Shown one piece after another: positions 1,470 through 21,432 of a DNA stretch of 64,000 nt; the stretch's first letter is position 1; each line of letters starts with the position of its first letter. Below the pieces are notes generated by a model, which was given only the letters and a program-made list of their open reading frames with translations, was not told where the DNA came from and did not search any database. This stretch comes from a virus, in the IMG/VR virus record IMGVR_UViG_3300027749_000055, positions 1 to 64,000 of that record; one strand, 5' to 3'. Made by a program: the position numbers and the translations under genes.

Positions 1470-1592
1470 TTAGAGGTCGTCTATCTGTAGGTTGAGGGAA
1501 TCGAGGGTTGCCTTCATACGGTCTATGCGCTCTCCTAGTGCCCACATCATTACGAAGATTTCGGCGTATTCGAGTTCTTCTTCGGGGGTCAT
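1470..1592 (-). CDS. hypothetical 40-aa protein
   Basis: ATG overlaps upstream stop; MTPEEELEYAE... Confidence 0.45.
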   Translation of the reverse strand: MTPEEELEYAEIFVMMWALGERIDRMKATLDSLNLQIDDL

Positions 1593-2197
1593 TGGATAAG
1601 TGTATGAACTTGGTTGGCTGGCATTGTGTATATGGGCATTTCGGCGTAACGATTCCAACTGGTTTGCTCAAAGCCTTCGTGTTCCCAGAATCCTACCGAT
1701 GTGAGTTCTGGTTCGAACGCAATGCCGAGGTTCTGGCTAGAGGCGACCTTGGCTACTTCGCCTAGTAAAGCCTTGCCTACTCCGCTTGTGGTGTGGGTTG
1801 AGCCGATGTAATGAATGTAGAGTTCCTTTAGTCGGGGTTGAATCATCGTTGCGCCGACAGTCTTGCCTTCCGTATCCTTGGCTACCAGAATGGATACGGG
1901 GGCGTCTGGGTGTTCGTATTCTTCCTTCTCAAAGAGGGATAGGGCGGCGTAGGTCATACGGTATCCGAGCCATAGTTCGTGCTGGCTGGGGTCGGTTGGT
2001 TCTCCCTTGGGGAGTATGTCTATGCCTTGCGCCTTGGCTTGGTCAAGAACGCTTGATTGAGCGTCTCGGATTGCTTCTTCGTCTGTTAGGGGAGTAATCG
2101 AGCCTGTGAACTGCTTAGAGCCTTTGGGGTATCTTCCTGAACCTTCCCCACCTTTGGTAAAGGGGAGTAAAAGTGCGTCGGTGCTAAAGCGGTTCAT
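1589..2197 (-). CDS. leader/KGG-motif protein with GNAT acetyltransferase domain
   Basis: Start re-called at MNRFSTDALLLPFTK|GGEGSGRY; GNAT motif A (SGVGKALL) and FWEHEGF. Confidence 0.8.
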   Translation of the reverse strand: MNRFSTDALLLPFTKGGEGSGRYPKGSKQFTGSITPLTDEEAIRDAQSSVLDQAKAQGIDILPKGEPTDPSQHELWLGYRMTYAALSLFEKEEYEHPDAPVSILVAKDTEGKTVGATMIQPRLKELYIHYIGSTHTTSGVGKALLGEVAKVASSQNLGIAFEPELTSVGFWEHEGFEQTSWNRYAEMPIYTMPANQVHTLIQ

Positions 2198-2214
2198 AGG
2201 TATTTGGTTCCAAT

Positions 2215-5085
2215 TCAGTTCGAGACGATTTGGTTGTTGAACTTCTCTTCGCCACCCAAAATAACTACTTCTCGTTCCTTCAGACAGCCGACACCTGTGA
2301 GGGGTAGTGAAAAAATGCGGTCTGCGGGGACGGTGGCGGAAATGATGTTGCCGTCTAGGTGTTTGCGGTCTTTGGAGGTCAGCCCACCGGCAAAACTTTC
2401 GGCGGATTGACGGGTGGTTGCAAATGACGAGAGTGGTCGAATGTTGATTGTTACCTCTCCCCCTTGCTTCTGCCACTCGGTTTGGGCGTTATACAGTCCT
2501 CGATACAGCGGGAGGTTGGTAATTCCGTGGTCGTTGAGAAATTGTTGGGTGTTGTCGTATTGCGCCTGCAAAAATGCTTTGTAGAGGTCGCCGTTCTTGG
2601 CGGTTTCCTTGTTCAGTTGTTCTTGTTGTTTGGGCGTTATGTCCCAATCGAGGGTTCGTCCAAGCCCGAACTGTTCTTTGGCGGCTTCTTGAATGGCAAG
2701 GGACTTGATTTTGAACGTAGAGGTCGTTCCTATGCCGTTGGAAGAAACTGCCCACAGATTGACAAGTTTGGAAATGGCTGCTTGGCGAATGAGCGAACGC
2801 AGTTCGGGGTCGTCCCCCTTGAAGAATTGTGCGCCTTTGTCTTTGAGGTCTTGGAAATACCAAGTGTTGAATTGGTCGCCGGTTTTACCGAAAAACTGAA
2901 TCTCCGTCTCCACTGCCCCCATTACGCCTTGGACATCTGTTTGCACCATAAAGTTGTTGTCGGCGGTTAATGCCTTCTCCCAATTGCGAAGCGGGGCGGT
3001 TCCAATCGAGATGATTCGAGCCATTGAGAAAAGTTGCTTGTCGAACTTGTCGCCCATACGGTCTGAAATGTCTTTGGCTACCTTGGCTTTGGCAAATTGG
3101 GCGTTTTCCTTGTTGTTCAGGGGGTCGTCGCTAACGTCTTCCTGCTTGTGGGGAAGAATCTTGGTTACTGCGTCGTAGAGACGGGCGTTGTTGAGGTCAG
3201 CGGTGGAAATTTGGCTTGTCCACCCTTCTTTGTGCCGCCCAGACCCAGGCCCGCCCTTTTCGACGTTTAGGTAGTTCTTGCCTATGGGGAGTTGGGCGAT
3301 TGCTTGCATTTCTTCGAGCGTCCAAGTGGAGGTGAACGAGCCTGTAGGGGTTTTGTCGAAGGGGTGGATAATGGGTGCGAGAGTTCTGCCAATAGCCGTG
3401 TGGTAGTTGGTTGCGTCTGCCGTAGAGACACTCTCTAGGTTGGTTTGCCCTGCGACGGTGGCTATGTAGTGTTCCAAAGCCGTTGCAGTGCCAGAAATTT
3501 CGTTAGTTGAGCCTAACTCCGTGATTTTCCAATCTTTGCCCGTGCGGTGTTGGATTGCCCCCATTACGCCAACGATATTGCCGTCTTTGTCTAGGGCGAT
3601 ATACGCCTCACGGTTGTTTTCCTTGTTGAGCATTGCTAAATTGCGTCTCATCATTTGGTAGCCCTCGATAAGCCGTTTGCGTTCGGGGGTCAGTCGCTTC
3701 ACGTTGGCGAGTTCCACAGCCTTTTGGTGGATTTCACTACGGGCTTCATCAAGGGATTTGCCGTTGGGGAGTTTGGTTGCGCCTGATTTGACTTTGATGA
3801 TTGTTCCGCCAGCCTTGTAGAACTTGTTGGCGTTGGTGGTGATGAACTCCGCTACTTCGGGCGTGATTCTACCTACCGTTGTCCACTTACTTCCTTTTGG
3901 GTATCGCCCACTACCGGGCCCACCCTTGGAAACGGGTGAAAAAACTTCACTCGCAACTGCTTTGACTTCGGCGGGGTTCCAATCTAGATATCCGTCTTCA
4001 TCAGTCATCAACCAACCGTCGAAATCCTTTTTACCAAGGTCGCCCCAGAAATCTTCGCCTTCGCCAGAAGGTTCAAGGCGTATTGAAAATCCGTTGTCGC
4101 TGGCGTATTGGAATAATGCTTGTGCCAACGACGCACCTGCGCCTCGAACTTCGCCCGTTGTGCCAAAAAATGAGCAACTCACCGTGTTGGCATAGGGGCG
4201 AAAGCCCAATGCGCCAACTGCCTTGCCGTTAGAGGTGGCTACAAAGGCGTAAGCGTTGCCCAAAGCCTCTAGTGCCATAGTTGCACCGTCGGAATCGGGG
4301 TGGGCGGAGAGAAACGCCTTTAGGTCGTTGGTGTATTGGGTCTTGTCCGTTGCCAGAACAACCTTTCCGCCGTTGGTGGAAAAATAACGAATGGCTTGGG
4401 AATAATCGCTCTCCTTGTGTCGCCCACTGCCTTGCCCGCCTTTGGAAACAATGTGGTCGAGAATGTATTGGGCGAACTTCTCTGGTGCGCCCTCTGGGGA
4501 ACTCATATAGCCCTTAGCGTCTTTGATAATGGCGGGGGTTGCGTCTACTAGGTGGTTGAAGAATAAACCGTTGTTCATCGGCTTTGGCTCTTCACCAAAG
4601 TTAATGCTGGTGATGAGGTCAAGGGCGTGAGGCTCGGTAATAACGCCCCGTGCGTCTAGATACTTGTCTTCGTCTATGGAGAGGACAAAATGGTCTACTT
4701 GTGGCGTTCCCCCTCGCTCGGTGGCACTCTCAATGTGAGAGAGTGAGGTCGTAATGCTTGCCTTCATTACGGCGTTTGGAAAAATGATGTTGAGTGCTTG
4801 TGCGGTCATTAGGCAACCGCCAAAAACGGGTGTGTTGCGAATCTCGGTGCTACCCGTGATAAGTCGGTTCAGTTCTTCGTGAGCCTCTTTGGTTTCCAAA
4901 ACTTTGGCTACTTGCTCTGGGGTGGCTTTTGCGCCTTCAAGCGAACCCTCTTTTCCAAAGGGGAACGCTGGGTGGATTTCAGTGTGCCTGCCACTGCCCG
5001 GCCCGCCTTTTACAATCCTGCCCAGACGAGCCTCGGAAAACGTCGGCATTGACTCTCGAAGAATCTTCGTTAGGTCAATGGTCAT
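2215..5085 (-). CDS. polyprotein: papain-like domain, GNAT, GNAT-like, ADP-ribosyltransferase, separated by KGGxGSGR linkers
   Basis: Start at 5085 (ATGA overlap); GGC...DHF...YLD triad; RGAGASLA; YRG...SSF...EREVV. Confidence 0.8.
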   Translation of the reverse strand: MTIDLTKILRESMPTFSEARLGRIVKGGPGSGRHTEIHPAFPFGKEGSLEGAKATPEQVAKVLETKEAHEELNRLITGSTEIRNTPVFGGCLMTAQALNIIFPNAVMKASITTSLSHIESATERGGTPQVDHFVLSIDEDKYLDARGVITEPHALDLITSINFGEEPKPMNNGLFFNHLVDATPAIIKDAKGYMSSPEGAPEKFAQYILDHIVSKGGQGSGRHKESDYSQAIRYFSTNGGKVVLATDKTQYTNDLKAFLSAHPDSDGATMALEALGNAYAFVATSNGKAVGALGFRPYANTVSCSFFGTTGEVRGAGASLAQALFQYASDNGFSIRLEPSGEGEDFWGDLGKKDFDGWLMTDEDGYLDWNPAEVKAVASEVFSPVSKGGPGSGRYPKGSKWTTVGRITPEVAEFITTNANKFYKAGGTIIKVKSGATKLPNGKSLDEARSEIHQKAVELANVKRLTPERKRLIEGYQMMRRNLAMLNKENNREAYIALDKDGNIVGVMGAIQHRTGKDWKITELGSTNEISGTATALEHYIATVAGQTNLESVSTADATNYHTAIGRTLAPIIHPFDKTPTGSFTSTWTLEEMQAIAQLPIGKNYLNVEKGGPGSGRHKEGWTSQISTADLNNARLYDAVTKILPHKQEDVSDDPLNNKENAQFAKAKVAKDISDRMGDKFDKQLFSMARIISIGTAPLRNWEKALTADNNFMVQTDVQGVMGAVETEIQFFGKTGDQFNTWYFQDLKDKGAQFFKGDDPELRSLIRQAAISKLVNLWAVSSNGIGTTSTFKIKSLAIQEAAKEQFGLGRTLDWDITPKQQEQLNKETAKNGDLYKAFLQAQYDNTQQFLNDHGITNLPLYRGLYNAQTEWQKQGGEVTINIRPLSSFATTRQSAESFAGGLTSKDRKHLDGNIISATVPADRIFSLPLTGVGCLKEREVVILGGEEKFNNQIVSN

Positions 5086-7871
5086 AGCGGTTCCAATTCT
5101 ACAAGAACGTAATTGTTCAAACGGCGATTGTAATTTGTCCATTCTGGCATAGTGGGGTCTTCGGAGAGGGGTGCGTAGGGAACGTCTTTGGTGACGCTGA
5201 CGACCTTGAACGAAGATTCGGGAATTAGCCACTCCGCTTGGTATTTAAAATCCTCTATTGCGTAGGGTTCGGCGTTTACGCCCCGTGCGCCTTGTGGAAT
5301 GTGGAAAACGATGTAATTGTCGCCTCGGTTTCCCATAGGGCTGTTATCGGAAGCGAATTGTTCGCCCACCAACTTCTTGCGTGACCAACTCGAAAACGGC
5401 AACTTGACGGTTTCGCCTACTTGTAGCGACTTTATTAACTTGGGGTAGTCCTCGACGTCTACGTTAATCCCACGCCACAGTTCGGGGGCTTCTTTGTTGG
5501 CTCGCTTGGCAATTTCTTCCAATTCCTCCCGACTAGGGGAGCCCCACCCGTCGCAATTTTCTGTCCACGCTTCAATGGCTTGTTGCTCGGCTTGGGTAAG
5601 GTCGCTCTCCTTGTGCCGACCACTGCCCGGCCCGCCCTTGGTGACTTTAGAAGAAGGCGTGGTGAACGATATGCCAAGTTTGGTCAATGCCTTTACCTGC
5701 GCTGGTGTTGGCTCACCGTCAAACTCCACTCGCTCTATGTCCTTTAGGGATACGCCACCGTGAATCTGCGCCTCGACGTAGGTGTCCAACTTGGCGGAAC
5801 CGTTTTCTATCTCTTTCAACGTGGCGATTGCGTCGTTGTATATACGACTTGCCATTCCGTAGTTATGAAACATTCGAGGCGAGACAAAACCTGACGGTTG
5901 TGGGTCGGTGGCGGACAAGGGGTGATTCGTCCGCCCTAGAATCTTGTCGGTTGTTTTGTGAGCACCGTACATATCGAGGCTGTCTCCAATGGTGACGGTT
6001 GTTCTGTTCTTGACGGAATCTTTGAGAACAAACTTCACTCCGCCATACATAGTGGGGTCGGCTTCGCTTCCCTTGTGGTCTATGTATCCATAGACGGGGT
6101 GCTTACTATCAGGCTCACCCTTCAAACCGAAGAGGACATTTTCGGCTGAATATCTTTGGTATTCACCTTTTTTGCCCCAATATTTGCGTTCCGAAGTTTT
6201 AGATTCGTAGCCATTGAGGATTTTTCCGCTTTGGAGTATTTGGTCAAGGTTTTTTTCGGGAACTCGGATAGAGACGGGGTTCTCGGCAACAAAAGTCTTG
6301 ATTGCCTTAGCCGCTTCTTTTTGGTAGTCCTCTAGCGACCTGTAGCCGAGTTCGGAAAGTGCCTCTAACCCATTCTTTTGATTTTCTTCTCTAGCAGTAG
6401 CCGTGTATTGGAGGGCGTTCCGTCCTGCTTTGGCTCGCAACTTCTGGTTGGCACTTTCCAATCGAGCATTTAGGTCAGTTTCGTTTGACCTACTTGACCC
6501 CTTGTGCCGACCGGAACCAGGCCCGCCTTTGGAAATAGGGGCGATGACGTTCCAGCGGGGGAAATTCTCCTTCATCAAGTCCACGACGGGCGGGGGCGTG
6601 TCGGAGGTCATAATGGCACGGTTCGTTGCCATAGCGTAAGTCTCTGCCACGAACTCGGCGGGGTTTTTTGAGCCGTATTCAGTCATACCCGCTTCTTGAA
6701 GCATTTGGCGTTCGATTTGGTTAAATCCGCCCGTGTAATCCCATACGCCCTTGCCAAAATGGTTGCGCTCGGTGTATTGAATTTCACTGAATCGTTCCTT
6801 CCAATACGCCTCCGACGTCATTTCGTAATACGAATCCCGTTCTTCTTCCGTCAGGTATTCCTGACGGTTCCAAAACTCGTTGCCCTCAATGGCGAGTTCT
6901 GCCATTCCACTAAGCACGGGAACCAACTTGTCGAGGTTCTTTGTGTCCCAATGGAATCCTTCGTCTCGTCCGTCCTGCGCTTTGTCGCTGTAAGAAATTT
7001 CCATATCCCGCTCGAAGGCGTAGTGTCCGAGTTCGTGGGCAATCGTGTTGAAGGCGACTTCGGCTGAGTTGGTGCTAATACCGCCGACTTGGTAGTGGGT
7101 ATAGTCATACTCACGGGTGCTACTAAACGGGGAAAAATGGTCGGGTTGTTCGCCCCCCATAGCCGTTTCAATGTCGTGTCGGACTACGCCCTTGTAGATA
7201 CCCTTGTCGGGAATCAAAATCTGGTGCTGATAGCCAGAATCGGGGCGAGTTCCCGCCGCCATTCCGAGGTTGTTCTCGTAATAGGCGACTGCCGTTCTAC
7301 CACCAAAGTTGCTATTAGAAAAAAACAGTTGTATTCCGCCCTCTGGGTTCAGTTGGTCGAGCGCACTGACGATTTCACTACTTTCTTGGTCAGACGGACT
7401 CCACGCCTCGGAATTGCCCTCTGAATCCTTCGACCACTCCACTTGAACTGCGTTGTCCTTGCTGGTCAAGTAGTTGAGTATGTAATTGTCGGTTGGTTCG
7501 CCCGTCGAGCCATTCAGCACTCGGTCACTGCCAACAAATTTCCAATCCTTCGGCGTTTCCCACGAACAACCGTCGGGGAGACTGCCTGATTCGGGGTGTC
7601 TGCCGGAACCAGGCCCGCCCTTTTTGACCCGTTTTTCCTCTTTCTCCCGTTTTTCCTCTTCACCCAACATCTGAAAAAAATTTACGAACGACTGAATCTT
7701 GTATCGGTCAGCACGGAATCGGTGTCCGGCTTCGATTTCTTCTTGGGCGTGGCGTAGTGCCTCTGCCATTTGTTGTGAGTTCTTGCGCTCTTTGTCTGAT
7801 TGACGAGCGGGCTGGGCGGTTTCGTGCCCTTTTACACCACTACCGACTCCACCTTTGGAAACAGGACGCAT
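5082..7871 (-). CDS. polyprotein: short module, zincin metallopeptidase, DUF3626-like, ADP-ribosyltransferase, separated by KGGxGSG linkers
   Basis: HELGH...EYGSKNPAEFVAE; PVYG...YG...RTTVTIGDS...YVEAQIHGG; WRG...SSWS...QAEW. Confidence 0.8.
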   Translation of the reverse strand: MRPVSKGGVGSGVKGHETAQPARQSDKERKNSQQMAEALRHAQEEIEAGHRFRADRYKIQSFVNFFQMLGEEEKREKEEKRVKKGGPGSGRHPESGSLPDGCSWETPKDWKFVGSDRVLNGSTGEPTDNYILNYLTSKDNAVQVEWSKDSEGNSEAWSPSDQESSEIVSALDQLNPEGGIQLFFSNSNFGGRTAVAYYENNLGMAAGTRPDSGYQHQILIPDKGIYKGVVRHDIETAMGGEQPDHFSPFSSTREYDYTHYQVGGISTNSAEVAFNTIAHELGHYAFERDMEISYSDKAQDGRDEGFHWDTKNLDKLVPVLSGMAELAIEGNEFWNRQEYLTEEERDSYYEMTSEAYWKERFSEIQYTERNHFGKGVWDYTGGFNQIERQMLQEAGMTEYGSKNPAEFVAETYAMATNRAIMTSDTPPPVVDLMKENFPRWNVIAPISKGGPGSGRHKGSSRSNETDLNARLESANQKLRAKAGRNALQYTATAREENQKNGLEALSELGYRSLEDYQKEAAKAIKTFVAENPVSIRVPEKNLDQILQSGKILNGYESKTSERKYWGKKGEYQRYSAENVLFGLKGEPDSKHPVYGYIDHKGSEADPTMYGGVKFVLKDSVKNRTTVTIGDSLDMYGAHKTTDKILGRTNHPLSATDPQPSGFVSPRMFHNYGMASRIYNDAIATLKEIENGSAKLDTYVEAQIHGGVSLKDIERVEFDGEPTPAQVKALTKLGISFTTPSSKVTKGGPGSGRHKESDLTQAEQQAIEAWTENCDGWGSPSREELEEIAKRANKEAPELWRGINVDVEDYPKLIKSLQVGETVKLPFSSWSRKKLVGEQFASDNSPMGNRGDNYIVFHIPQGARGVNAEPYAIEDFKYQAEWLIPESSFKVVSVTKDVPYAPLSEDPTMPEWTNYNRRLNNYVLVELEPL

Positions 7872-7881
7872 TAACCCTCAC

Positions 7882-9618
7882 TTACGCCGAGGTGGTCTTG
7901 AAAATGCCCTTGTCAGACGACCAACCGTATCCTTCGGGAAGCAGGTAGTCACCAATGACGATATTGAAGTTAGCGTCGTTTGTCCACTCGGAGTCCCGTG
8001 CTGTCCGCATAAATTCACGGTCAATCGGTTCTCTAGAAATCTGTCGTGCTGGCTCACCCTGAATCTTGTCCAAGTTCCTAGCACCCGTGAAGTCAGCACC
8101 GACAAGGTTTGCACCTTCAATGTTGGCAAATGCAAGGTCAGCACCGTTGAAGATTGTTTCTGCTTGGTCACGTCTACCGTCAAGTTTTACTTTTGCAAAG
8201 TTGGCATTGGTGAGGTTAGCGTCAATGAATTTGCCACCAATCTCACGACCAGCGAAGTTCACATTGGAAAGATTTGCACCAGAGAAGTCTGCCTTCAACT
8301 CACCACGATAATCTGCCGTGAAGCCCTTGTCATTTACCTTGGGGTCGGCAAATGTTGAGCCACTTAGGTCAGCCATAGCGAACGACGGTAGTTTCATTCC
8401 GTAGGAGTTTGCCTCAAAACCACGCAAGTCGGCATTTCGCAAATCGGCACTTTCAAAGGTGGTGTTCCTTATGTCGGTTCCACCAATTCCCTTAGCGGAA
8501 GCGGCGGTTCGCACCCCTTGAAGATTCGCCCCGTCAAACGAAGCCCTAAAAGGCTTCATTCGTGCAAGGTTCGCACCGGAGAGGTCAGCGTCTTGGAAGT
8601 TTGCCCCCTCCAACTTTGCCCCCGACAAATTGGCATTGACCAAAGTTGCGTTGGAAAAATTGGCTTGTTCGGCGTTTACCTTCGTCAAGTTTGCGTCGGT
8701 AAGGTCTGCGCCTCGGAAACTACCCAATGGGACATACGCCTTAGTGAAATTAGTGCCAATAAGTTTTGCGCCGCTGAAGTCGCTCTCCTTGCCACGTTGT
8801 TCGGTGAAATCCTTGCCGGAAATGTCTTGTCCGGCAAAATCAGCCCTGATGTGCAAATCGCCAGCGACCCGTGCGGTGCTGAAGGTGTCGCTCGTCCATT
8901 CGACGGGTGCGGTGGGGAAACAGTGGGTGCAAAGCGTTGAGCCACCTTGGGCAACGGCTTCTTCTTCGGTCAAACCAGAAAAACGAGGCAACCATACAAA
9001 AGAAGTAGGGGTTATGCCGTTATTGCAAGAATGGCACTCCATTGACGAGTGAATGTGACCGTCTTGAACTCCAAAGTATCGGTTCCAACCCTCATAGTGG
9101 GAGTCGGCTTCCTCATAAACGGCACGGGCGGTGTCACGGGCTTCCTTGGTCTTTTCAAGTTCCGCCATAGATTTATCAAAATCTTCTTTGTAGTTGCGAG
9201 GCGACCCATACTGATTCTTTTCGGGAAACTCACCAAACTTGCCAGCGAGCCGTGCTTCGATAAGTTGGAACGCCTTTGGGTTCACCATTTGCTCGCCCGT
9301 GACGGTGGTGTAGACAGTCCGTTGTTGCTTGCCGTAGCCCTCCTTCTTTACTTCTACGCCTTGCTTTGCATACATAGCGGCACGTTCCTCGGCAACCATT
9401 TTGTCTGCAACCGTTCCCTGAAACTTGTAATACTTCTCGGCAATGTCGGTGTCTATACGCACCATTTCTTCACGGTCAGTGATTTTGCCGTTGGTGTTCA
9501 CTCCGGCGGGGTAACGACCTGTCCCCTCAGGGTGACGACCCGAACCAGGCCCACCTTTAGCAACGGGGTAGTTGCTCAACGGGCGCAACAGTTCTGAGGT
9601 TGAGAACGGGGTCTTCAT
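7882..9618 (-). CDS. leader/KGG-motif protein with Cys/His zinc domain and pentapeptide repeats
   Basis: MKTPFSTSELLRPLSNYPVAK|GGPGSGRH; GHIHSSMECHSC...LCTHCFP; many A(N/D)(L/F)xx pentapeptides. Confidence 0.85.
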   Translation of the reverse strand: MKTPFSTSELLRPLSNYPVAKGGPGSGRHPEGTGRYPAGVNTNGKITDREEMVRIDTDIAEKYYKFQGTVADKMVAEERAAMYAKQGVEVKKEGYGKQQRTVYTTVTGEQMVNPKAFQLIEARLAGKFGEFPEKNQYGSPRNYKEDFDKSMAELEKTKEARDTARAVYEEADSHYEGWNRYFGVQDGHIHSSMECHSCNNGITPTSFVWLPRFSGLTEEEAVAQGGSTLCTHCFPTAPVEWTSDTFSTARVAGDLHIRADFAGQDISGKDFTEQRGKESDFSGAKLIGTNFTKAYVPLGSFRGADLTDANLTKVNAEQANFSNATLVNANLSGAKLEGANFQDADLSGANLARMKPFRASFDGANLQGVRTAASAKGIGGTDIRNTTFESADLRNADLRGFEANSYGMKLPSFAMADLSGSTFADPKVNDKGFTADYRGELKADFSGANLSNVNFAGREIGGKFIDANLTNANFAKVKLDGRRDQAETIFNGADLAFANIEGANLVGADFTGARNLDKIQGEPARQISREPIDREFMRTARDSEWTNDANFNIVIGDYLLPEGYGWSSDKGIFKTTSA

Positions 9619-9982: not shown

Positions 9983-10726
9983 TTAGTAGTCGTAGTCGTA
10001 ATCGTCGTAATCGTCGGGTTCCCTAAAGTTGTCGTCTTCTCGACTCTCTTCTGCGTAATCTGTTGCCCTTCCTTCAATCCAAGAGTCAGAGTAGCCTTTT
10101 CCGCCGCCCGTGTAAGCAAAGTGCAACGCTTGTCCAGCCGTGCAGATTGGAACTCGCTCGCCCTTGGTGTTGTCTCCGAAGACCCAACTGTTAGGGGTAA
10201 GTTCCTTTGGTGCGTCTTCTTCCTTGCCCGATTGAGAAAAAGAAAAGTTGGTAAAACCCTTAATCAACGACTCGGCTCGAACCGCATAAGCACCTTTGGT
10301 TTCGTATTTTCCGTCATTGGCAAGGTCGGTCATAATGCTGTTGATTTTGTCGGGCAAAGAAAACTTGTAGTCCACCCGTGCTGTGCGCTCGTCGTCTAAG
10401 AAAACTTCGTAGTCATCGACCTCCACGTCTCCGGCGGGATACATAGTGTATGCGTCGTAGTTTTCGTCCTTGTTGGGGTCAAGGTAGCCCCTGCGCTCGT
10501 TGCTTGAAAACTCGTAATACTCCACATTGCCGTTGTTTTCCTTGACGGTTTGAACTGCCGGTATGGGCATCTTGCGACCAATTGCTTGACGGTAGCGAGA
10601 CAACTCGCTGTTTGCTTCAATTCTGAAGTCTTCCTTGTGGCGACCACTGCCCGGCCCGCCTTTGACGACGGGGTAGGTGCTGGCGTTCGGTAGCAGTGCG
10701 TCAGTTGAGAATGGGTTGTTGCTCAT
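9983..10726 (-). CDS. leader/KGG-motif acidic protein
   Basis: MSNNPFSTDALL...VVK|GGPGSGRH; D/E/Y-rich, ends DDYDDYDYDY. Confidence 0.8.
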   Translation of the reverse strand: MSNNPFSTDALLPNASTYPVVKGGPGSGRHKEDFRIEANSELSRYRQAIGRKMPIPAVQTVKENNGNVEYYEFSSNERRGYLDPNKDENYDAYTMYPAGDVEVDDYEVFLDDERTARVDYKFSLPDKINSIMTDLANDGKYETKGAYAVRAESLIKGFTNFSFSQSGKEEDAPKELTPNSWVFGDNTKGERVPICTAGQALHFAYTGGGKGYSDSWIEGRATDYAEESREDDNFREPDDYDDYDYDY

Positions 10727-13527: not shown

Positions 13528-13561
13528 TTCCAAATGGTAACAGGGTTGGGTGGTAAAAAAA

Positions 13562-13828: not shown

Positions 13829-13849
13829 GGCTTACAGAATACCCTTTGA

Positions 13850-14272: not shown

Positions 14273-14321
14273 TTTGCCACACTACCACGGTTGGTGACTG
14301 CGTGTTGTAATTACGTCGTTG

Positions 14322-15515: not shown

Positions 15516-15539
15516 ACAGCAAGGCTACCCCCCTTAGAT

Positions 15540-15610
15540 AAAAAAGAGGGGTGGCACGACAACGAGATAGGAGGAACCTATTGCGTGTCTGTTTGCCCCG
15601 CTGCCGTGCC
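15540..15610 (-). ncRNA. putative anti-SD small RNA 2
   Basis: TTGCAG-N17-TACACT promoter (15645-15617); 14-bp stem 15610-15597/15566-15553 enclosing GGTTCCTCCTAT; T-tract end. Confidence 0.55.
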
Positions 15611-15657
15611 GATAACAGTGTATCAGGGTTGAGTACCAACTGCAAGTTATTTATTAG

Positions 15658-15729
15658 CACGGGGGCAAGGACTCGAACCCTGAATGGCAGAGCCAAAATC
15701 TGCTGTGTTGCCAATTACACCACCCCCGT
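15658..15729 (-). tRNA. tRNA-Gln (TTG)
   Basis: Cloverleaf: ACGGGGG/CCCCCGT acceptor, GCAGA-TTTTGGC-TCTGC anticodon arm, GGTTCGAGTCC T-arm. Confidence 0.9.
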
Positions 15730-15751
15730 AAGGCTTGTTCAGTGTATCGCC

Positions 15752-16717
15752 TTAGCGACGGGGGTAATTGGATAATGAACGAAGAAGGTCGTCGGTAAAA
15801 AAGGACTTTTTGGTGTCTTGCGGAACGGTTGTGATTTCCTGCAGTTTCACGCCCTTCTCCTTGTCCCACGTCAAGCCCAACTTCACGGCGTTATCCCACG
15901 TCGTGTTGATTTCGTAGACCGGCAGACGCATTGAGGGGTTCAAAATGTGCATTGCGATAGCCGCAGCCCAATTGTGGTGTCCGTCGAGAACGTGACCGTC
16001 CGAGGTGACAAGGATTCGCTGGTCGTCGGGGTAGCCACCCTTCTTCAAATACGATTCCAAAATTCCACCAGCCTTACGCCCGTTGATTTCTTTCTGAATA
16101 GGCTTTAGGTCTTCGGGGTTCACTTCTTTTTTAGTGAAAGTAATGCCGTGCTTGTCGCCCAGCCATTTCAAAAACTCAGGACGCTCGTTTGATTCAATTT
16201 GTGGCATTTTGATTCGGGCAAAGCCCTTGCCATTGTGTCCAATGAGATATGTGCCCATAAGACGCAGTTCGGTAATGTCGAGCGGTGACTTTCCGCCGAG
16301 GTGCGCCATTGCTTTGATAATGTCGGGAAATGACGTGCGTGTAATTTCGGGGTCACGACCACGCCTCAATGCACGGGCGATATTGGAAGCCATTTCCTTT
16401 ATTTCTTCGGGCGTTTTACCAGCCGTTGTGTGTGGGCCGTGTTCCGGTTGCTTGCGATTAGCGGGAGTTTTGGAATTCGGATTGGTCTTCGGTGCTTTAA
16501 GTCCGTTTCTACTAGCGGGGGCAGGCTTGGGCTTTGCCTCCGTTTTCGGTTGAGGCATTTCCTCACGGGTGGACTGATAACGGTCTTCGGAAACTTGATT
16601 ACGGGCTGGGTCGGATTGACGCTCAGGTTGAGCCGTGGTGTGCCCCTTGACACCAGACCCCTCGCCACCCTTGGCGACGTGCGACAAAAGACTGTCGATA
16701 GAGAATGGCGTTTTCAT
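15752..16717 (-). CDS. leader/KGG-motif protein with ParB/Srx-like domain
   Basis: Start re-called at MKTPFSIDSLLSHVAK|GGEGSG; LKPIQ...ILVTSDGHVLDGHHNW. Confidence 0.8.
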   Translation of the reverse strand: MKTPFSIDSLLSHVAKGGEGSGVKGHTTAQPERQSDPARNQVSEDRYQSTREEMPQPKTEAKPKPAPASRNGLKAPKTNPNSKTPANRKQPEHGPHTTAGKTPEEIKEMASNIARALRRGRDPEITRTSFPDIIKAMAHLGGKSPLDITELRLMGTYLIGHNGKGFARIKMPQIESNERPEFLKWLGDKHGITFTKKEVNPEDLKPIQKEINGRKAGGILESYLKKGGYPDDQRILVTSDGHVLDGHHNWAAAIAMHILNPSMRLPVYEINTTWDNAVKLGLTWDKEKGVKLQEITTVPQDTKKSFFTDDLLRSLSNYPRR

Positions 16718-16755
16718 ACCCCCAAGGATACAGAACGATTTTTGAAATCCAATTG

Positions 16756-16828
16756 TGGAGAGTAAGGGACTCGAACCCTTGACCCCCTGCTTGCAAAGCA
16801 GGTGTTCTACCAACTGAACTAACTCCCC
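16756..16828 (-). tRNA. tRNA-Ala (TGC)
   Basis: GGGGAGT acceptor, CCTGC-TTTGCAA-GCAGG anticodon arm, GGTTCGAGTCC T-arm. Confidence 0.92.
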
Positions 16829-16955
16829 AAATTCGTCACATCACTCTAGCAACCCTGTTATTGTTCTTCTCGCCGTCAAATAACACGGTCTTCGCTGGAA
16901 AGTCTGGCGTTGTAATCAAACTGAAGCAATCCGACACTGCAAAGGTTTAACGATT

Positions 16956-16982
16956 TACCCCCACTGCAAAGTGGGGGTTTTT
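16956..16982. terminator. intrinsic terminator hairpin
   Basis: ACCCCCAC-tgcaaa-GTGGGGGT followed by TTTT. Confidence 0.6.
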
Positions 16983-16985
16983 CGT

Positions 16986-19469
16986 TTATTGCGCCATTCC
17001 TCGCTGAGCAAGCGCAACAAGAAGGTCGCCCAACAATGAGTTGTCTTCTTGCTCGTCGTCGTCCGAGCCGTCAATGGCACGGTTCACGATTCCCCGCTTG
17101 CGCTCGATAAGAGCCGCAATGTCTTCGTCAATCGTGTTCTGCGTGAGCATTAGCCAACCCGTCACGGAGTCTGTCTGACCGATACGGTGGCAACGGTCTA
17201 CCGCTTGTTCCATATCGGCGGGAGTCCAACCTTGCTCGATAAACAGCACGTCGCTCGCTGCAGTCAGGGTCAGACCAACGCCAGCCGCCTTGATTTGGCA
17301 GGCGATTACCTTCTGGTCGTCTGACTGTTGAAATGCGTCCACGGCTTCCTGACGCTTCTTCATAGACACGCCACCCTGAATCTTGCAATTGCCCGCAAAG
17401 TTATCGGCAACCATATCCACGACTTCCGTGTGCCAACCAAAGACAACCAACTTTTTGTCCTGAGCAAGAAAATCCCGAATCCATTGCTCAGCCGCCTTCA
17501 TCTTCGCCTTGGCTGCGAGTTGCTTTAACGTCGAAATAGAAACAAGGTGTTCTGCGCCACGGGCACGAAGGGCACGTTGCCACGCTTCGTTCTGCGCTTC
17601 CTTGTCGGACGCACCGGACTCACGGGCAATGCGAAGAGCCTCTTCCGAGAGATACTTCACAATGTCGGCTTCCGCCTTCTTGTATTCCTTCATAATGTTC
17701 TTGTCGCCCTCAACGAGAACTTCAGACCACATCTTCGGGGGCAACTCGGTCAGCACGTCAGCCTTGCGACGGCGAACGTAACAGGTCGCACGGAGTTTGC
17801 GATTGAGCGAGGCAAGGGTGCGAGCGTTTGAGCGTCCGTAGGCGTTGCGGAATTGCGACGACCCACCGAAATCGCCCAAGCGGTTCAGCACTTTCAACTG
17901 CGTCATTAGTTCAAGGGGTTGGTTTACGATTGCCGTTCCCGATAGGCAGATACGAACGCCGTCGTCCGTCACTTTCTCGGAAAGCGAGATACACGCCTTG
18001 GCACGAATCGTGCTTCCGTTTTTGATGTAGTGGCTCTCGTCCAAGACCAAGCCCCTGATGTTGCCAAACTTGGAATACCAATGGTCGAGAATGTCGTAGT
18101 TCACGACGTAGATGTCAGCGTCGGGGAGGTTTCCGGACGTGCCCGACAGCACAGCGACCCGAACGCCGTCAATCCACCTCTCAGCCTCTCGCTTCCAATT
18201 TATTTTGAGCGAAGCGGGAACGACCACGACTGCGGGAAAAGCGTTAGCCGCTTTGAGAACGCCCAAGCCCTGCGGGGTCTTGCCTAATCCCATTTCGTCG
18301 CCAATCAGAACGCCCTCATTACCTTCACGAACCTTGGTGAACTTGCCGTCGGCATACTCAAAGCCCATAGCCCGCATTGCATAGCGAACGCCCGCACGTT
18401 GGTAGGGAAACAGTTGAAGGTTGGGCTTACCAAACCCTTCAATAATCAACTCAGCGTCGCTGGCGGACGACGAGGCAATAATGTCTCGAACGTCAGCGGC
18501 TTCTTGGAGAAGAGCCATTGCGTCGGGGGTGACGACAGCCTCTTGCAGTGTTACAAAAGCCAGCACTTCGTCGGCGGCTTCGATTGGAACAAGCCACGCT
18601 CGCTTTGACGGATTCCACGACGAACCAGGCATTTGCCTAACGAGCGAAATGGTCTGAGCGTCGTAAGGGAATGAAAGCGCAAAGTTACGTTCGTGAACGC
18701 TGACGACTGAGCCGTTGCCCATATCAACGTCGGGCAAATCCTTCACTTCGTCGGTGAGGGTGATGTTGTATTCCTCGGCAATCTTGCGGACAAAACCCAC
18801 ACATTCCTTGGAGACAATCCACAACTTTTTTGCGCTATCCCAACGGCGATTGGGAATCGTGCGAACTGCGTCCACAATGTTCGGGTTGTAGTCGAAGCGA
18901 AGGGCGATTGACCCCTCTAAGATGAAGGCGTGACCGGCTGGCTCGGCGGGATTAGCGGACGTGTCTACCTCGTTGAGAATCGCCGTTGCACGTTCAGTGA
19001 TTGGAATGTTGTAGCGACCAGCCCAAGTGACGACTGAGCCATACTTCGCCACGCTGACTTGCCAGCCTCGAAGGTCACGATTCCAAATCGCACCCAAGCC
19101 GGACTTCGGATAGGCAATGTCGCCGTAGGGCAAGAAAACCAGCACCTTGCCACCACGAACGTCAATGCAACGAATGTCGTCTGCACCACGGGCTTCCGGT
19201 GGTTCGGGAATGGCGGTGTAGTCAATTCCGCTCTTAGACAACTGACCCTGATACTTGTGAAGCATTGTCCACGCCTTGCGCTGAAGGGCTGGTGTCCACA
19301 CTTCGGGCGGGGTGCTGGCAAGTTTCTTGCCAAACTTCGAATCAGTGCCGTTGAAACCTTGACCGTCGCTAGACGACGCACCGTCGCAACGGGCGGCTAT
19401 CGCTTGGATAGCGGAAACGAGAATGGGATTTGGTGTGTGAGCGGTGGTTTGCTCTAGAGTCATAGTCAT
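16986..19469 (-). CDS. SNF2/SMARCAL1(HARP)-like helicase
   Basis: GDEMGLGKT, DESH, LSGT, QAVDRCHRIGQ; N-terminal repeated HARP-like W-rich units. Confidence 0.9.
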   Translation of the reverse strand: MTMTLEQTTAHTPNPILVSAIQAIAARCDGASSSDGQGFNGTDSKFGKKLASTPPEVWTPALQRKAWTMLHKYQGQLSKSGIDYTAIPEPPEARGADDIRCIDVRGGKVLVFLPYGDIAYPKSGLGAIWNRDLRGWQVSVAKYGSVVTWAGRYNIPITERATAILNEVDTSANPAEPAGHAFILEGSIALRFDYNPNIVDAVRTIPNRRWDSAKKLWIVSKECVGFVRKIAEEYNITLTDEVKDLPDVDMGNGSVVSVHERNFALSFPYDAQTISLVRQMPGSSWNPSKRAWLVPIEAADEVLAFVTLQEAVVTPDAMALLQEAADVRDIIASSSASDAELIIEGFGKPNLQLFPYQRAGVRYAMRAMGFEYADGKFTKVREGNEGVLIGDEMGLGKTPQGLGVLKAANAFPAVVVVPASLKINWKREAERWIDGVRVAVLSGTSGNLPDADIYVVNYDILDHWYSKFGNIRGLVLDESHYIKNGSTIRAKACISLSEKVTDDGVRICLSGTAIVNQPLELMTQLKVLNRLGDFGGSSQFRNAYGRSNARTLASLNRKLRATCYVRRRKADVLTELPPKMWSEVLVEGDKNIMKEYKKAEADIVKYLSEEALRIARESGASDKEAQNEAWQRALRARGAEHLVSISTLKQLAAKAKMKAAEQWIRDFLAQDKKLVVFGWHTEVVDMVADNFAGNCKIQGGVSMKKRQEAVDAFQQSDDQKVIACQIKAAGVGLTLTAASDVLFIEQGWTPADMEQAVDRCHRIGQTDSVTGWLMLTQNTIDEDIAALIERKRGIVNRAIDGSDDDEQEDNSLLGDLLVALAQRGMAQ

Positions 19470-19553
19470 ACCCATACTTTACCACGGTTGAGAGGCAGAA
19501 TCTAGTTATTTTGGGCGGTTACAAGAGATTTCTTATAACCTAGGCGGAATTGC

Positions 19554-19817
19554 CTACTTACCTCGGTTGTGGTGTTTGAACAAGGCTTGCTCGGTGGTGT
19601 TAGCCCACTCCGCAATCGTGCGCCAAGTAATTCCGTGTTCACGGAGACGGGTGACGGTCTGGCGACGGTCAATTCCCAACTCCACGACCTTCTTCTCGCT
19701 ATCACGCATTTGCTTGCATACGTCCTGAATGTGTTGTAGCAGTGAAGCGACTTCGGGCGAGTAGTCCTCGTCAATCGTCTTGCGGGTGGGTAGCGGGGTC
19801 ATAGGGTCTTTGGGCAT
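19554..19817 (-). CDS. HTH DNA-binding protein
   Basis: GITWRTIAEWANTTEQAL. Confidence 0.7.
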   Translation of the reverse strand: MPKDPMTPLPTRKTIDEDYSPEVASLLQHIQDVCKQMRDSEKKVVELGIDRRQTVTRLREHGITWRTIAEWANTTEQALFKHHNRGK

Positions 19818-20022
19818 TGGAGTATTCCTTTCGCACGGTTGAGTGTAGTCGGGTTTGGAACGGGCTGTCTAGTTGGTTTCAGAAGAATCGCTTTTTACCA
19901 CTTCAGCGACCTTGCATTGGTTGGCGCAGAACCACTCCCCAGACACAAAAAATGCCCGAAGACGACAAAATAAGCAGTGACCTGCCTCGACTTCGGTGGG
20001 GACTAGATTTTCCATAACCCCA

Positions 20023-20397
20023 CTATACCTCAATAATGGTAATTTCTAGTGCGTCCCGTCCGAACTGCGGTGCTAAAAACGTCAGTTTGGTAACTATGTT
20101 GGCGTTATCGTCAATCAACACGCCTGCGTCCACAATTCCGTCAATGGCGGCTTTGACCACAGGGAAACAAGCCCCTACGTCTTGACGGTATCGAGCGTTC
20201 AGGACATACGGCTGAACCACGACCTCGATTTGTTCCAAATGTGGAACCATTGCGTCTTGCGCCAACTCGCAGAAAATCTGCCGCCAAGATTTCACTACTT
20301 TCGCCCGTGCGTGGTGGTGGACGGTGCGTTCCTTGTTGAGCGTGAAATCGGGGCGTTCTTCGTGAACAAGAACGTAGGACTTGGTTTTTTTGCTCAC
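20023..20397 (-). CDS. RusA-like Holliday junction resolvase
   Basis: D....VKAAIDGIVDAGVLIDDN motif. Confidence 0.75.
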   Translation of the reverse strand: MSKKTKSYVLVHEERPDFTLNKERTVHHHARAKVVKSWRQIFCELAQDAMVPHLEQIEVVVQPYVLNARYRQDVGACFPVVKAAIDGIVDAGVLIDDNANIVTKLTFLAPQFGRDALEITIIEV

Positions 20398-20882
20398 AGG
20401 CTCAGCACCTTGAAGGGCGCACGGACTTGGGCGGTGTGATACGCCGAGGCTTTGAGTGCGGTGGTAATACGGTCTTTGCCCGTCATAGTGGTTCCTTGCA
20501 GGGCGAACATTGCGGACATTGCCGATAAGCCTCCTGCGCCAATAGCCGTATAGTTCTCACGAAGTCGAACTACCGAGAAATCATTTCCAATTACCCATAC
20601 GCCCACAACACTAATTACCAAAATCGTTGTGTCGTTTTCGGCTTGCGACGAAGAATTGGATATCCACCAACTTTCAAGGTGGTCACGGAGTTTGTGAGGG
20701 TCGCCAATAAAAGAATCGTAGGCAATCTCCGCAAGACGGAACCCCCCAGAAGCACCCAGAAGGTAATCCTCAGCCTTCCAAACCTTGATTTCGGTCAGCG
20801 ACACGCTGTCTTCGTCAAATGCGCCGGAATCTCCGCCAATCCACGCTTGCTTCTTGTCGTGCCAGCCAACGATAACGGTCAT
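20394..20882 (-). CDS. HslV/proteasome-like Ntn hydrolase
   Basis: N-terminal MT-VIVG, GGDS, K, AIGAG. Confidence 0.75.
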   Translation of the reverse strand: MTVIVGWHDKKQAWIGGDSGAFDEDSVSLTEIKVWKAEDYLLGASGGFRLAEIAYDSFIGDPHKLRDHLESWWISNSSSQAENDTTILVISVVGVWVIGNDFSVVRLRENYTAIGAGGLSAMSAMFALQGTTMTGKDRITTALKASAYHTAQVRAPFKVLSL

Positions 20883-20913
20883 AGGGCAAGAATACTAGAC
20901 CCTAGTGAAATAT

Positions 20914-21432
20914 TTAGATTGAGCCTCGCATACTTGTTCCAAAATCGTTGATTTGACGCATTACAGAGCCCCAAGCACAGTTGTAGTGGCGACCTTCGAT
21001 ACTGCCGTCGGCGTTGCGGGCAAAGTCCTTTTTAGACGGAATCCAAGTGACCTTCACATAGGAGTCAGGCTTGCTCTCTCCCTCGGCTGGCTCGCTCATC
21101 TTTTTTGCACAAACTTTGCAAACAACCTTGTCTATGTCGGGCGAACCCGCTGCCAACTCGACAGTTTGAGCGTTGCGAAGTCGAAGTTTGGAAAACGCTG
21201 TCTTGATAGCGGCGAGCGTGTCGCCAACTTGAATCTTGTGCCACTCCGAGTTGAGGTTGGAACGGAAGACACCGTTACGTCCAGCAACGTAGTCGTGGGT
21301 GTGAGCGTCGGGCATATGCTTACCCGCAATTTGGCTACTGCCAGCGGGGTAACGCCCCGAACCCGGCCCACCTTTAGTCAGCGGGAAGAAATGCTCGTTG
21401 ATGAGATTTTCGGTGGAAAACGGGTTCGTCAT
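20914..21432 (-). CDS. leader/KGG-motif protein of unknown function
   Basis: Start re-called at MTNPFSTENLINEHFFPLTK|GGPGSGRY; CKVC...HYNC. Confidence 0.75.
   Translation of the reverse strand: MTNPFSTENLINEHFFPLTKGGPGSGRYPAGSSQIAGKHMPDAHTHDYVAGRNGVFRSNLNSEWHKIQVGDTLAAIKTAFSKLRLRNAQTVELAAGSPDIDKVVCKVCAKKMSEPAEGESKPDSYVKVTWIPSKKDFARNADGSIEGRHYNCAWGSVMRQINDFGTSMRGSI

What the first reader, a model, noticed from the sequence alone, without database searches (positions are those of the whole stretch)
1589..21432. Candidate new system: virion-packaged, protease-processed effector arsenal marked by a K|GGxGSG linker
Seen: 13 copies of [V/I/L/F]-x-K-GG-x-GSG-(R/V) in seven genes. The Lys codons are at about 2155; 5010, 4443, 3927, 3258; 7856, 7622, 6530, 5639; 9558; 10663; 16672; 21375. 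In the two large proteins each copy falls between distinct domains; in the five smaller ones it follows a short leader. The cargo is enzymatic: three GNAT-like, two ART, papain-like, zincin, DUF3626-like, ParB-like, Zn plus pentapeptide, acidic. Established: T4 internal proteins and Alt are packaged and trimmed by the prohead protease, and phage polyvalent and MuF-fused proteins carry similar host-takeover domains. Inference: these precursors are loaded into the prohead, cut after Lys into about 13 modules that each start GGxGSG, and injected with the DNA to counter defences or take over the host. No MuF domain was recognised in them.
Basis: partly seen in the sequence, partly recalled or inferred. 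Interest (0 to 1): 0.95.

Follow-up and report, generated by a model that had tools for sequence, protein, structure and literature searches.

The report
Tagged, protease-jointed phage cargo polyproteins
A 114-kb uncultured phage gives a quarter of its genome to enzyme modules that each begin with the same short peptide (hydrophobic-x-Lys, then GGxGSGR), probably a head-protease cut site plus a cargo tag for proteins carried in the capsid, though no cut has been measured.

Summary
All 13 K-GG-x-GSG copies sit at the stated codons. The whole 113,659-bp phage genome has 40 copies in 18 minus-strand genes (24% of the genome), against 0.016 expected by chance.

The residue two before the Lys is always V/I/L/F. 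Codons vary synonymously, so selection acts on the peptide. Homology between modules starts right after the Lys and ends at the next tag. The same module is internal here and a stand-alone leader-plus-module gene in another phage.

The tag occurs in at least 131 protein clusters from uncultured phages. There it is fused to portal, MuF and XkdF-protease domains and to ART, GNAT, NUDIX and SAM-lyase cargo.

This phage's only recognisable head protease is an XkdF domain next to the portal. Its model has the T4 gp21/herpesvirus protease fold. Lys-type tags go with XkdF (8 of 11 contigs). Ala-type tags (h-x-A-GGPGSGR) do not (0 of 11). HK97's known cut site reads F-N-K|S.

Best reading (about 0.55): the head protease cuts after Lys, and the tagged modules are carried in the capsid. 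Cleavage, packaging and injection are all untested.

This scan has noted similar Lys-plus-tag cargo systems, with other tags, on other DNA.

The parts
1589..2197 (-). Gene A, 202 aa: 15-aa leader (M-N-R-F-S-T...F-T-K), tag, one GNAT-like module
   Evidence: ORF and motif; weak GNAT Pfam hits just below or at cut-off
2215..5085 (-). Gene B, 956 aa polyprotein: 26-aa leader and four tagged modules (Lys at aa 26, 215, 387, 610). Its ATG overlaps the stop codon of gene C.
   Evidence: P0006. Module 3 is 62% identical over its full length to stand-alone leader+module ORFs in L026/L038. Module 4 is a paralogue of the last module of the 1222-aa protein at 67028-70696. Weak GNAT hit; ART lead.
5082..7871 (-). 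Gene C, 929 aa polyprotein: 6-aa leader M-R-P-V-S-K and four tagged modules (78, 364, 297, 184 aa)
   Evidence: HExxH in module 2 with zincin-peptidase atlas lead at 0.92. DUF3626 in module 3, 31.8 bits against a cut-off of 27.
7882..9618 (-). Gene D, 578 aa: 21-aa PFST-type leader, tag, 557-aa module with pentapeptide repeats
   Evidence: Pentapeptide PF00805 E=3e-37; phrog_2433
9983..10726 (-). Gene E, 247 aa: 22-aa PFST-type leader, tag, acidic 225-aa module of unknown function
   Evidence: no Pfam or PHROG hit
15752..16717 (-). Gene F, 321 aa: 16-aa leader M-K-T-P-F-S-I..., tag of the GSG-V-K-G-H variant, 305-aa basic module. It lies between tRNA-Gln and tRNA-Ala.
   Evidence: phrog_2859
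20914..21432 (-). Gene G, 172 aa: 20-aa leader M-T-N-P-F-S-T-E-N-L..., tag, 152-aa basic module
   Evidence: The leader is 78% identical to that of the protein at 71309-73024.
2132..2155 (-). Tag copy (K-GG-E-GSG-R), gene A
4987..5010 (-). Tag copy, gene B site 1
4420..4443 (-). Tag copy, gene B site 2
3904..3927 (-). Tag copy, gene B site 3
3235..3258 (-). Tag copy, gene B site 4
7833..7856 (-). Tag copy (GSG-V variant), gene C site 1
7599..7622 (-). Tag copy, gene C site 2
6507..6530 (-). Tag copy, gene C site 3
5616..5639 (-). Tag copy, gene C site 4
9535..9558 (-). Tag copy, gene D
10640..10663 (-). Tag copy, gene E
16649..16672 (-). Tag copy (GSG-V variant), gene F
21352..21375 (-). Tag copy, gene G
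59486..60505 (-). Major capsid protein (context): no tag and no N-terminal propeptide
   Evidence: phrog_1005 E=1e-92, aligned from residue 1; 54% identity to the Arthrobacter phage Ottawa capsid protein
61281..62060 (-). 259-aa protein upstream of scaffold and capsid genes (context): seven h-x-K-(A/S) sites. Possible protease substrate or scaffold.
   Evidence: Enrichment p=3e-4 against the genome rate, about 0.04 after correction for 143 proteins; phrog_13547

Best explanation
The motif has two parts. Hydrophobic-x-Lys is the cut site of the phage's XkdF-type head-maturation protease, with P3 hydrophobic and P1 Lys as in HK97. The GG-x-GSG-(R) that follows stays on as the new N-terminus of each module. 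It probably acts as a cargo tag that loads or retains the module inside the procapsid. Precursors with short leaders, or long polyproteins, enter the prohead and are cut after each Lys into single-domain modules: 13 from the window and about 40 from the genome. These modules (GNAT, ART-like, zincin, DUF3626, pentapeptide and others) are released into the host with the DNA for takeover or counter-defence. Shown here: the motif, its modular grammar, its spread, its link to head proteins and its link to XkdF. Inferred: cleavage, the scissile bond, packaging, injection and what the tag binds.
For: There are 40 copies against 0.016 expected. Position -2 is always V/I/L/F. Ser uses both TCN and AGY codons and Arg both CGN and AGR, so the peptide is what is selected. 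Fifteen of the 18 tagged proteins have only a 6-26 aa leader before the first tag. The tag is never directly at the N-terminus: even the shortest leader keeps h-x-K. BLAST homology between modules begins at residue 1 after the Lys and stops at the next tag. Modules move between polyproteins and stand-alone genes. No tag lies inside a Pfam domain envelope. A profile search found 144 protein clusters; 131 carry the strict motif, 314 copies in all, with -2 hydrophobic in 95%. Some of these proteins are fused to XkdF (5), MuF (at least 5) or portal (1). In this genome one array starts directly downstream of the portal and a 504-aa protein with an XkdF domain (PF14550, 39 bits against a cut-off of 24). 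No S78, ClpP, S77 or MuF was found. The XkdF model (pLDDT 78.6) matches T4 gp21 best (Z 8.0, 105 residues aligned), then VZV protease (Z 6.3), and has invariant His and Ser. In related XkdF loci, 49 tags lie downstream on the same strand and 1 lies upstream; 25 of 33 close relatives have them against 0 of 23 more distant ones. Lys-type contigs at least 50% complete have XkdF in 8 of 11. Ala-type contigs have it in 0 of 11 (Fisher p=0.001). The residue before the tag is uniform within a protein but differs between lineages (K, A, H), as a protease P1 residue would. HK97 gp5 reads F-N-K|S at its known cut (the position of the cut is from my own knowledge of Duda et al. 1995).
Against: There are no proteomic or biochemical data, and no cultured phage with the tag was found. 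Capsid, scaffold, portal and protease proteins carry no tag. The conserved part lies on the P' side and is longer than a usual protease site. It also occurs in phages with no recognisable XkdF, S78, S77 or ClpP, so the protease alone does not explain it. Three of 11 Lys-type contigs lack XkdF, and one of them is complete. Genes A-G lie among replication genes (SNF2 helicase, deaminase, ParB_N), far from the head genes, and their timing is unknown. Leaders fall into at least three families, not one targeting sequence. About 9,085 residues of cargo is a lot to pack. The contig sets are not phylogenetically independent.
Confidence: 0.55

Rival explanations
1. The tag is a loading, retention or docking peptide that is not cut. 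Polyproteins stay whole, and the peptide binds the capsid interior, scaffold, portal or DNA, much as encapsulin cargo-loading peptides bind HK97-fold shells.
For: The GGxGSGR core is constant across lineages that differ in the preceding residue and in protease content. Structural proteins lack it. It heads cargo fused to portal or MuF.
Against: One tag per polyprotein would be enough for loading, yet every module has its own. h-x-K is kept even in 6-8 aa leaders. The preceding residue behaves like a lineage-specific P1 and goes with XkdF. Stand-alone and fused forms of one module are interchangeable.
Confidence: 0.2
2. The joints are cut by a different enzyme: the zincin (MPTase-like) module that the cargo itself encodes, as Iyer et al. 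2017 proposed for polyvalent proteins, or a host protease. This could happen in the cytoplasm or after injection, with or without capsid packaging.
For: Gene C module 2 has HExxH, and its nearest atlas clusters are phage M90/M48/ATLF-like peptidases. M48 and ATLF hits occur in two other tagged polyproteins. PMC5512222 predicts such autoprocessing. Genes A-G lie outside the head module.
Against: Zincin hits are rare among tagged proteins, 2 of about 122 scanned. The K-versus-A switch follows XkdF presence. h-x-P1 with hydrophobic P3 is the rule of the assemblin/HK97/T4 protease fold (the T4 and herpesvirus rules are from my own knowledge). The Pfam zincin models missed even this genome's own module, so their absence elsewhere is inconclusive.
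Confidence: 0.15
3. The conserved joint is mainly an evolutionary device: a shared linker that lets modules be shuffled by recombination, with no biochemical role of its own.
For: Modules are clearly shuffled at the joints, within this genome and between phages.
Against: Codons at the joint vary freely, including both Ser and both Arg codon classes, so DNA identity is not maintained. The same peptide is kept in phages from 32% to 59% G+C. It also follows short N-terminal leaders, where no joint is needed.
Confidence: 0.05

Closest known systems
T4 internal proteins IPI-III and Alt with the capsid targeting sequence, cut by prohead protease gp21
   Same: Short N-terminal leaders on unrelated cargo. 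The cut is made by a head protease of the same fold (T4 gp21 is the best structural match to this XkdF model) at a hydrophobic-x-P1 site. The cargo includes an ADP-ribosyltransferase and anti-defence proteins injected with the DNA (T4 facts from my own knowledge).
   Different: P1 is Lys, not Glu. A conserved 7-8 residue tag stays on the product. Many modules are strung into polyproteins. The protease family is XkdF (PF14550), not S77. There are several leader families instead of one.
Phage-type polyvalent proteins (Iyer, Burroughs, Anand, de Souza, Aravind 2017, PMC5512222) and MuF polymorphic toxins (Jamet et al. 2017, PMC5576092)
   Same: Multi-enzyme proteins with ART, GNAT, ParB, zincin and similar domains, predicted to travel in the virion. 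In other phages the same tag sits right after MuF or portal domains.
   Different: This genome has no MuF. Neither paper mentions a conserved joint or tag. Processing there is assigned to the zincin domain; here the evidence points to the head protease.
HK97 prohead protease gp4 cutting gp5 at Lys103|Ser104, and herpesvirus assemblin cutting at (V/L/I)-x-A|S
   Same: The rule is the same: hydrophobic P3, then x, then a small or basic P1. HK97 reads F-N-K|S. The Ala-type tags read h-x-A|GG. The XkdF model has the same fold.
   Different: Those enzymes trim capsid or scaffold proteins. Here the capsid protein has no propeptide and the candidate substrates are enzyme cargo.
Inner-body and ejection proteins of giant phages phiKZ and SPN3US, processed by the prohead protease (PMC10052503, PMC7411985)
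   Same: Many packaged, protease-trimmed proteins that are ejected into the host.
   Different: Those sites are (S/A/G)-x-E, propeptides are removed rather than modules separated, and no shared retained tag is reported (abstracts seen; site rule from my own knowledge).
Encapsulin cargo-loading peptides
   Same: A short conserved peptide marks unrelated enzymes for enclosure in an HK97-fold shell (from my own knowledge).
   Different: Those peptides are usually C-terminal, are not linked to proteolysis, and have a different sequence. No binding was tested here.

Membership tests
XkdF-type prohead protease (Pfam PF14550, Peptidase_S78_2): the 504-aa protein at genome 80005-81519 | Match to the family model above the curated cut-off | tested here: met
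   39.0 bits against a cut-off of 24, residues 364-484; 669 homologues, all of those listed carrying PF14550
XkdF-type prohead protease | Conserved His and Ser (catalytic pair of the assemblin-like fold) | tested here: met
   His and the Ser of G-(F/Y)-S-I-G-G are invariant in 47 sequences down to 16% identity
XkdF-type prohead protease | Fold of phage/herpesvirus capsid maturation proteases | tested here: met
   VIA-align: T4 gp21 5jbl Z 8.0, rmsd 3.4, 105 aligned; VZV protease 1vzv Z 6.3; next unrelated row Z 4.7. Foldseek was weak.
XkdF-type prohead protease | Gene beside the portal gene in the head module | tested here: met
   Portal at 81669-83339 (phrog_113, E=1e-84) lies directly upstream
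XkdF-type prohead protease | Proteolytic activity on head proteins | not testable with these tools
   Needs biochemistry
T4-like capsid-targeted, protease-trimmed internal proteins | Shared short N-terminal leader ending at a protease site | tested here: inconclusive
   Fifteen of 18 proteins have 6-26 aa leaders ending in h-x-K. The leaders fall into at least 3 families, and some are too short to be signals.
T4-like capsid-targeted, protease-trimmed internal proteins | Presence of the processed form in virions and injection into the host | not testable with these tools
   No isolate or proteome is available
Polyvalent proteins (Iyer et al. 2017) | Two or more unrelated effector domains in one polypeptide | tested here: met
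   B, C and the 1222-aa and 950-aa proteins hold 4-6 unrelated modules. Pfam gives GNAT and DUF3626; the atlas gives ART and zincin leads.
Polyvalent proteins (Iyer et al. 2017) | Virion-anchoring domain such as MuF in the same protein or genome | tested here: not met
   No PF04233 match in the genome. It is met in other tag-bearing proteins (P0031, P0050, P0051, P0054, P0105).
Polyvalent proteins (Iyer et al. 2017) | Zincin-like MPTase domain | tested here: inconclusive
   HExxH in C module 2 and an atlas score of 0.92 to phage M90/M48 clusters. There is no Pfam hit.
P-loop NTPase Walker A (the tag resembles GGPGSGK of adenylate kinases) | G-x4-G-K-(S/T) after a beta strand, inside an NTPase domain | tested here: not met
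   Arg or Val, then His/Tyr, replace Lys-Ser/Thr. The motif lies at domain borders and after leaders of unrelated modules.

The most novel reading that the evidence does not exclude
GG-x-GSG-(R) is a general, protease-independent cargo peptide of tailed phages. It loads or retains any protein domain in the procapsid, and perhaps primes it for ejection. The residue in front of it (Lys, Ala, His) is tuned to each phage's own head protease. If so, it defines a portable 'cut here, keep inside' grammar shared by hundreds of uncultured phages, and it gives a direct way to read their injected arsenals from sequence and to load foreign proteins into capsids.
Probability: 0.35. Interest if true: 0.9.

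Novelty: new variant of a known kind. Interest (0 to 1): 0.8.

Why it matters
Packaged, injected phage proteins are the first weapons to reach the host. Outside T4, P1, N4 and the giant phages they can hardly be recognised from sequence.

If this joint is what it appears to be, it labels about 40 candidate injected modules in one genome, and several hundred more in the 131 clusters found here, most of unknown function. That would be a ready list of candidate anti-defence and takeover enzymes.

It would also answer an open point about polyvalent and MuF-fused proteins: how they are split into working units. The answer offered here is the head protease at a conserved site, not the zincin domain.

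Pairing the P1 residue with the protease family is testable at the bench with two plasmids. A short peptide that directs proteins into capsids would also be a useful tool.

Tried and rejected
**Searches that gave nothing useful**
- Megablast of the region against phage records: no match.
- tblastn with a 40-aa leader plus tag: only noise, because the low-complexity filter masks the tag.
- Word-indexed protein search restricted to residues 1-40 of gene E: only four near-identical proteins.
- PDB sequence search with the XkdF profile: nothing. Foldseek: no match at E<=0.001.

**Named phages checked**
- Arthrobacter phage Ottawa (whole genome), and the head regions of Rhodobacter phage RcTiptonus and Rhizobium phage RHph_TM16, have XkdF-type or related head genes but no tag.

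**Controls that failed or were weak**
- A random 16-mer sample of viral contigs, meant as a baseline, gave contigs too short to use. The Ala-type contigs served as the control instead.
- Relatives of the Ala-type protein P0052 shared one module but had no tags.
- Pfam zincin models (M90, ATLF) missed even this genome's own HExxH module, so they say nothing about the zincin rival.
- The scan of 185,579 prokaryote species genomes gave 61 matches that look like chance: no hydrophobic residue at -2, and short or out-of-frame ORFs in GC-rich DNA.

**Readings considered and dropped**
- P-loop: wrong residues and wrong context.
- Mimic of the Pup C-terminus (V-Q-K-G-G-Q/E): the x position is Pro in 27 of 40 copies.
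- Double-glycine leader cut by a C39 peptidase: the spacing of the hydrophobic residue does not fit; no C39 search was run.
- 2A-like ribosome skipping: a eukaryotic mechanism.
- DNA repeat or recombination site: the codons vary.
Full report
**The observation.** All are on the minus strand and inside seven long ORFs. The window is the first 64 kb of a single 113,659-bp viral contig. Its first 145 bases repeat at its end, so the map is circular or terminally redundant.

Over the whole contig there are 40 copies in 18 minus-strand genes, 9,085 residues or 24% of the genome, against 0.016 copies expected by chance. On the closed map they form two arrays. One runs from 112.6 kb across the junction to 1.6 kb, with outliers at 15.7 and 20.9 kb; the window holds part of this array. 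The other lies at 67.0-79.6 kb.

The residue two before the Lys is V, I, L or F in all 40 copies. Ser is encoded by TCN 30 times and AGY 10 times, and Arg by both CGN and AGR. So the peptide is under selection, not a DNA repeat.

**Anatomy.** Fifteen of the 18 tagged proteins start with a leader of only 6-26 residues that ends in h-x-K. The other three start with a larger first module. Leaders fall into families:
- M-x-N-P-F-S-T-x-x-L-L...Y-P-V-x-K on eight proteins;
- an amphipathic ...E-Q-W-L-x-x-x-K type on three;
- very short ones such as M-R-P-V-S-K.

The tag never stands directly at the N-terminus. The modules between tags are 76-557 residues long, the size of single domains.

BLAST between modules starts at residue 1 after the Lys and stops at the next tag. 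Module 3 of gene B, which is internal, is 62% identical over its full length to stand-alone leader-plus-module genes on other viral contigs. A related polyprotein lacks exactly one module. One module is first in one protein and second in another. No tag falls inside any Pfam domain envelope that I obtained.

**Cargo.** Pfam gives weak GNAT hits (A, B and the 1222-aa protein), DUF3626 (C) and strong pentapeptide repeats (D). The language-model atlas gives leads only: a zincin peptidase for C module 2, which has HExxH, and an ADP-ribosyltransferase for B module 4. Most modules match nothing. The untagged genes between the window's tagged genes are a ParB_N protein, a dCMP-deaminase-like protein and an SNF2 helicase.

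**The phage.**
- The capsid protein (59486-60505) is of the lambda-E/YuA kind. It is 54% identical to that of Arthrobacter phage Ottawa and has no propeptide.
- The portal is at 81669-83339.
- Directly downstream is a 504-aa protein whose C-terminus is an XkdF domain (PF14550, 39 bits against a cut-off of 24). Its AlphaFold model (pLDDT 78.6) matches T4 gp21 best (Z 8.0), then varicella-zoster protease (Z 6.3), both clear of the next row. One His and the Ser of G-Y-S-I-G-G are invariant across 47 sequences.
- The second tag array begins 63 bases downstream of this gene's neighbour.
- The genome has no S78, ClpP, S77 or MuF match.

**Spread.** A degenerate DNA pattern for K-GGPGSGR-H found 37 stretches in IMG/VR, from 32% to 59% G+C. 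Nearly all were in long ORFs with a hydrophobic residue at -2. The wider consensus is h-x-K-GGPGSGR-(H/Y)-P-(E/K)-G.

The same pattern in 185,579 prokaryote species genomes gave 61 matches that look like chance.

A profile of 39 joints, searched against 1.84 billion representative proteins, gave 144 clusters at E<=0.001. Of these, 131 carry the strict motif, with 314 copies and up to eight per protein. Their Pfam content is that of phage polyvalent proteins: XkdF, MuF, portal, GNAT, ART and ART-PolyVal, NUDIX, SAM lyase, ChaB, ParB_N, PI3/4-kinase, 2H phosphoesterase, zeta toxin and M48/ATLF zincins.

Typical architectures are:
- portal(113-421)-tag-x-tag-ART;
- MuF-tag-cargo-tag-cargo, with the first tag 16-20 residues after MuF;
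- cargo-tag-cargo-tag-XkdF, or XkdF-tag-cargo.

**Which protease.** Four lines point to XkdF.
- Among Lys-type contigs at least 50% complete, 8 of 11 have XkdF above its cut-off and one more has a weak match.
- Around 80 relatives of this phage's XkdF domain, 49 tags lie downstream on the same strand and 1 lies upstream. Among loci with at least 3 kb of downstream sequence, 25 of 33 at 66% identity or more have tags, against 0 of 23 more distant ones.
- In other lineages the same GGPGSGR tag is preceded not by Lys but by Ala (h-x-A-GG...), or by His. The choice is uniform within each protein. Eleven large Ala-type contigs, five of them complete, have no XkdF at all, and no S78, S77 or ClpP either. 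The contrast of 8/11 against 0/11 gives Fisher p=0.001. The caveat is that these contigs are not phylogenetically independent.
- HK97 gp5 reads F-N-K|S at its known maturation cut (the position of the cut is from my own knowledge). T4 gp21 ((L/I)-x-E|) and herpesvirus assemblin ((V/L/I)-x-A|S) follow the same rule of hydrophobic P3, x, P1 (my own knowledge).

In this genome, h-x-K-(A/S/G) is also most enriched in two untagged or degenerately tagged head-module proteins. One is the 259-aa protein next to the scaffold and capsid genes (7 sites). The other is a 403-aa protein inside the second array (9 sites). After correction the p values are about 0.03-0.04, so this is weak support.

**Reading.** The joint has two parts. 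The first is a lineage-specific protease site ending in Lys here. The second is a constant tag that would remain as the N-terminus of each product.

The tag is not explained by the protease alone:
- it lies on the P' side;
- it is longer than usual protease sites;
- it is absent from the capsid, scaffold, portal and protease proteins;
- it is shared by phages with a different or unrecognised protease.

A loading or retention role would explain why every module carries its own copy: after cutting, small modules could otherwise leave the procapsid. That is inference. In close relatives of this phage the Arg after GSG is not kept, so K-GG-x-GSG is the stable core. A second, unrelated module-head peptide (P-R-D-x-x-G-(K/R)-F) occurs alongside GG tags in three polyproteins. 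Other agents of this scan described that peptide on other genomes.

**Literature.** Full-text searches for the motif strings found nothing relevant. The polyvalent-protein paper assigns processing to the zincin domain and mentions no joint. The MuF-toxin paper mentions no cleavage, linker or motif. XkdF appears in the literature only as an annotation or as a predicted head peptidase. Subscription journals were not searched.

**Verdict.** Cleavage, packaging and injection remain untested. I rate it a new variant of a known kind (protease-processed capsid cargo and polyvalent proteins), with a newly recognised and widespread sequence grammar. The same tag was flagged by first readers of the other windows of this genome, and similar Lys-plus-tag systems were reported by this scan on other DNA.

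Noticed in passing
window 30834-41351 (-): A 3,505-aa ORF directly downstream of the tape-measure gene (41390-44089). It has no Pfam or PHROG match at all. It is probably a giant tail or baseplate protein.
   Followed up: partly
window 1-145 and genome 113515-113659: The first 145 bases of the contig repeat at its end (99.3% identity), although the record is classed as linear. The genome is therefore circularly closed or terminally redundant, and the tag arrays at 105.7-112.6 kb and 1.6-10.7 kb are one continuous array.
   Followed up: partly
window 5082-5085: The start codon of polyprotein B overlaps the stop codon of polyprotein C, which suggests translational coupling of the two large cargo genes.
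   Followed up: no
window 15657-15729 and 16755-16828 (-): tRNA-Gln(TTG) and tRNA-Ala(TGC) flank tagged gene F.
   Followed up: no
L001:16005-17519 (genome 80005-81519), residues about 95-160 and 265-295: The XkdF protein has long Ser/Asp/Glu-rich acidic stretches before the protease domain. Two h-x-K-S sites (L-Q-K-S, I-R-K-S) lie right at the start of the domain and may be self-release sites.
   Followed up: no
P0203, P0204, P0252 and others: In the 60-kb Arthrobacter-phage-like group, the gene annotated 'RNA ligase' (for example in phage Salgado) is a 2H-phosphoesterase domain fused to a C-terminal XkdF protease domain. Other relatives fuse zeta-toxin-like kinase, HAD or Hva1_TUDOR domains to XkdF. 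These look like cargo carried in by the protease itself, without the GG tag.
   Followed up: partly
L249, L260, L262, L271, L275, L276, L278 (IMG/VR contigs): Large phages (up to 125 kb, several complete) carry h-x-Ala-GGPGSGR tags but have no recognisable XkdF, S78, S77 or ClpP protease. Their head protease is unidentified.
   Followed up: partly
L001:9885-11096 (genome 73885-75096): A 403-aa Ala/Lys-rich protein inside the head-side array has nine h-x-K-(A/S/G) sites, a Cys-rich stretch and a shortened tag (V-K-G-R-S-G-R-H-K-G). It has no family match.
   Followed up: partly
P0007, P0054, P0073: A second module-head peptide, P-R-D-x-x-G-(K/R)-(F/W), occurs in the same polyproteins as GG tags. 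The two tags therefore seem interchangeable.
   Followed up: partly
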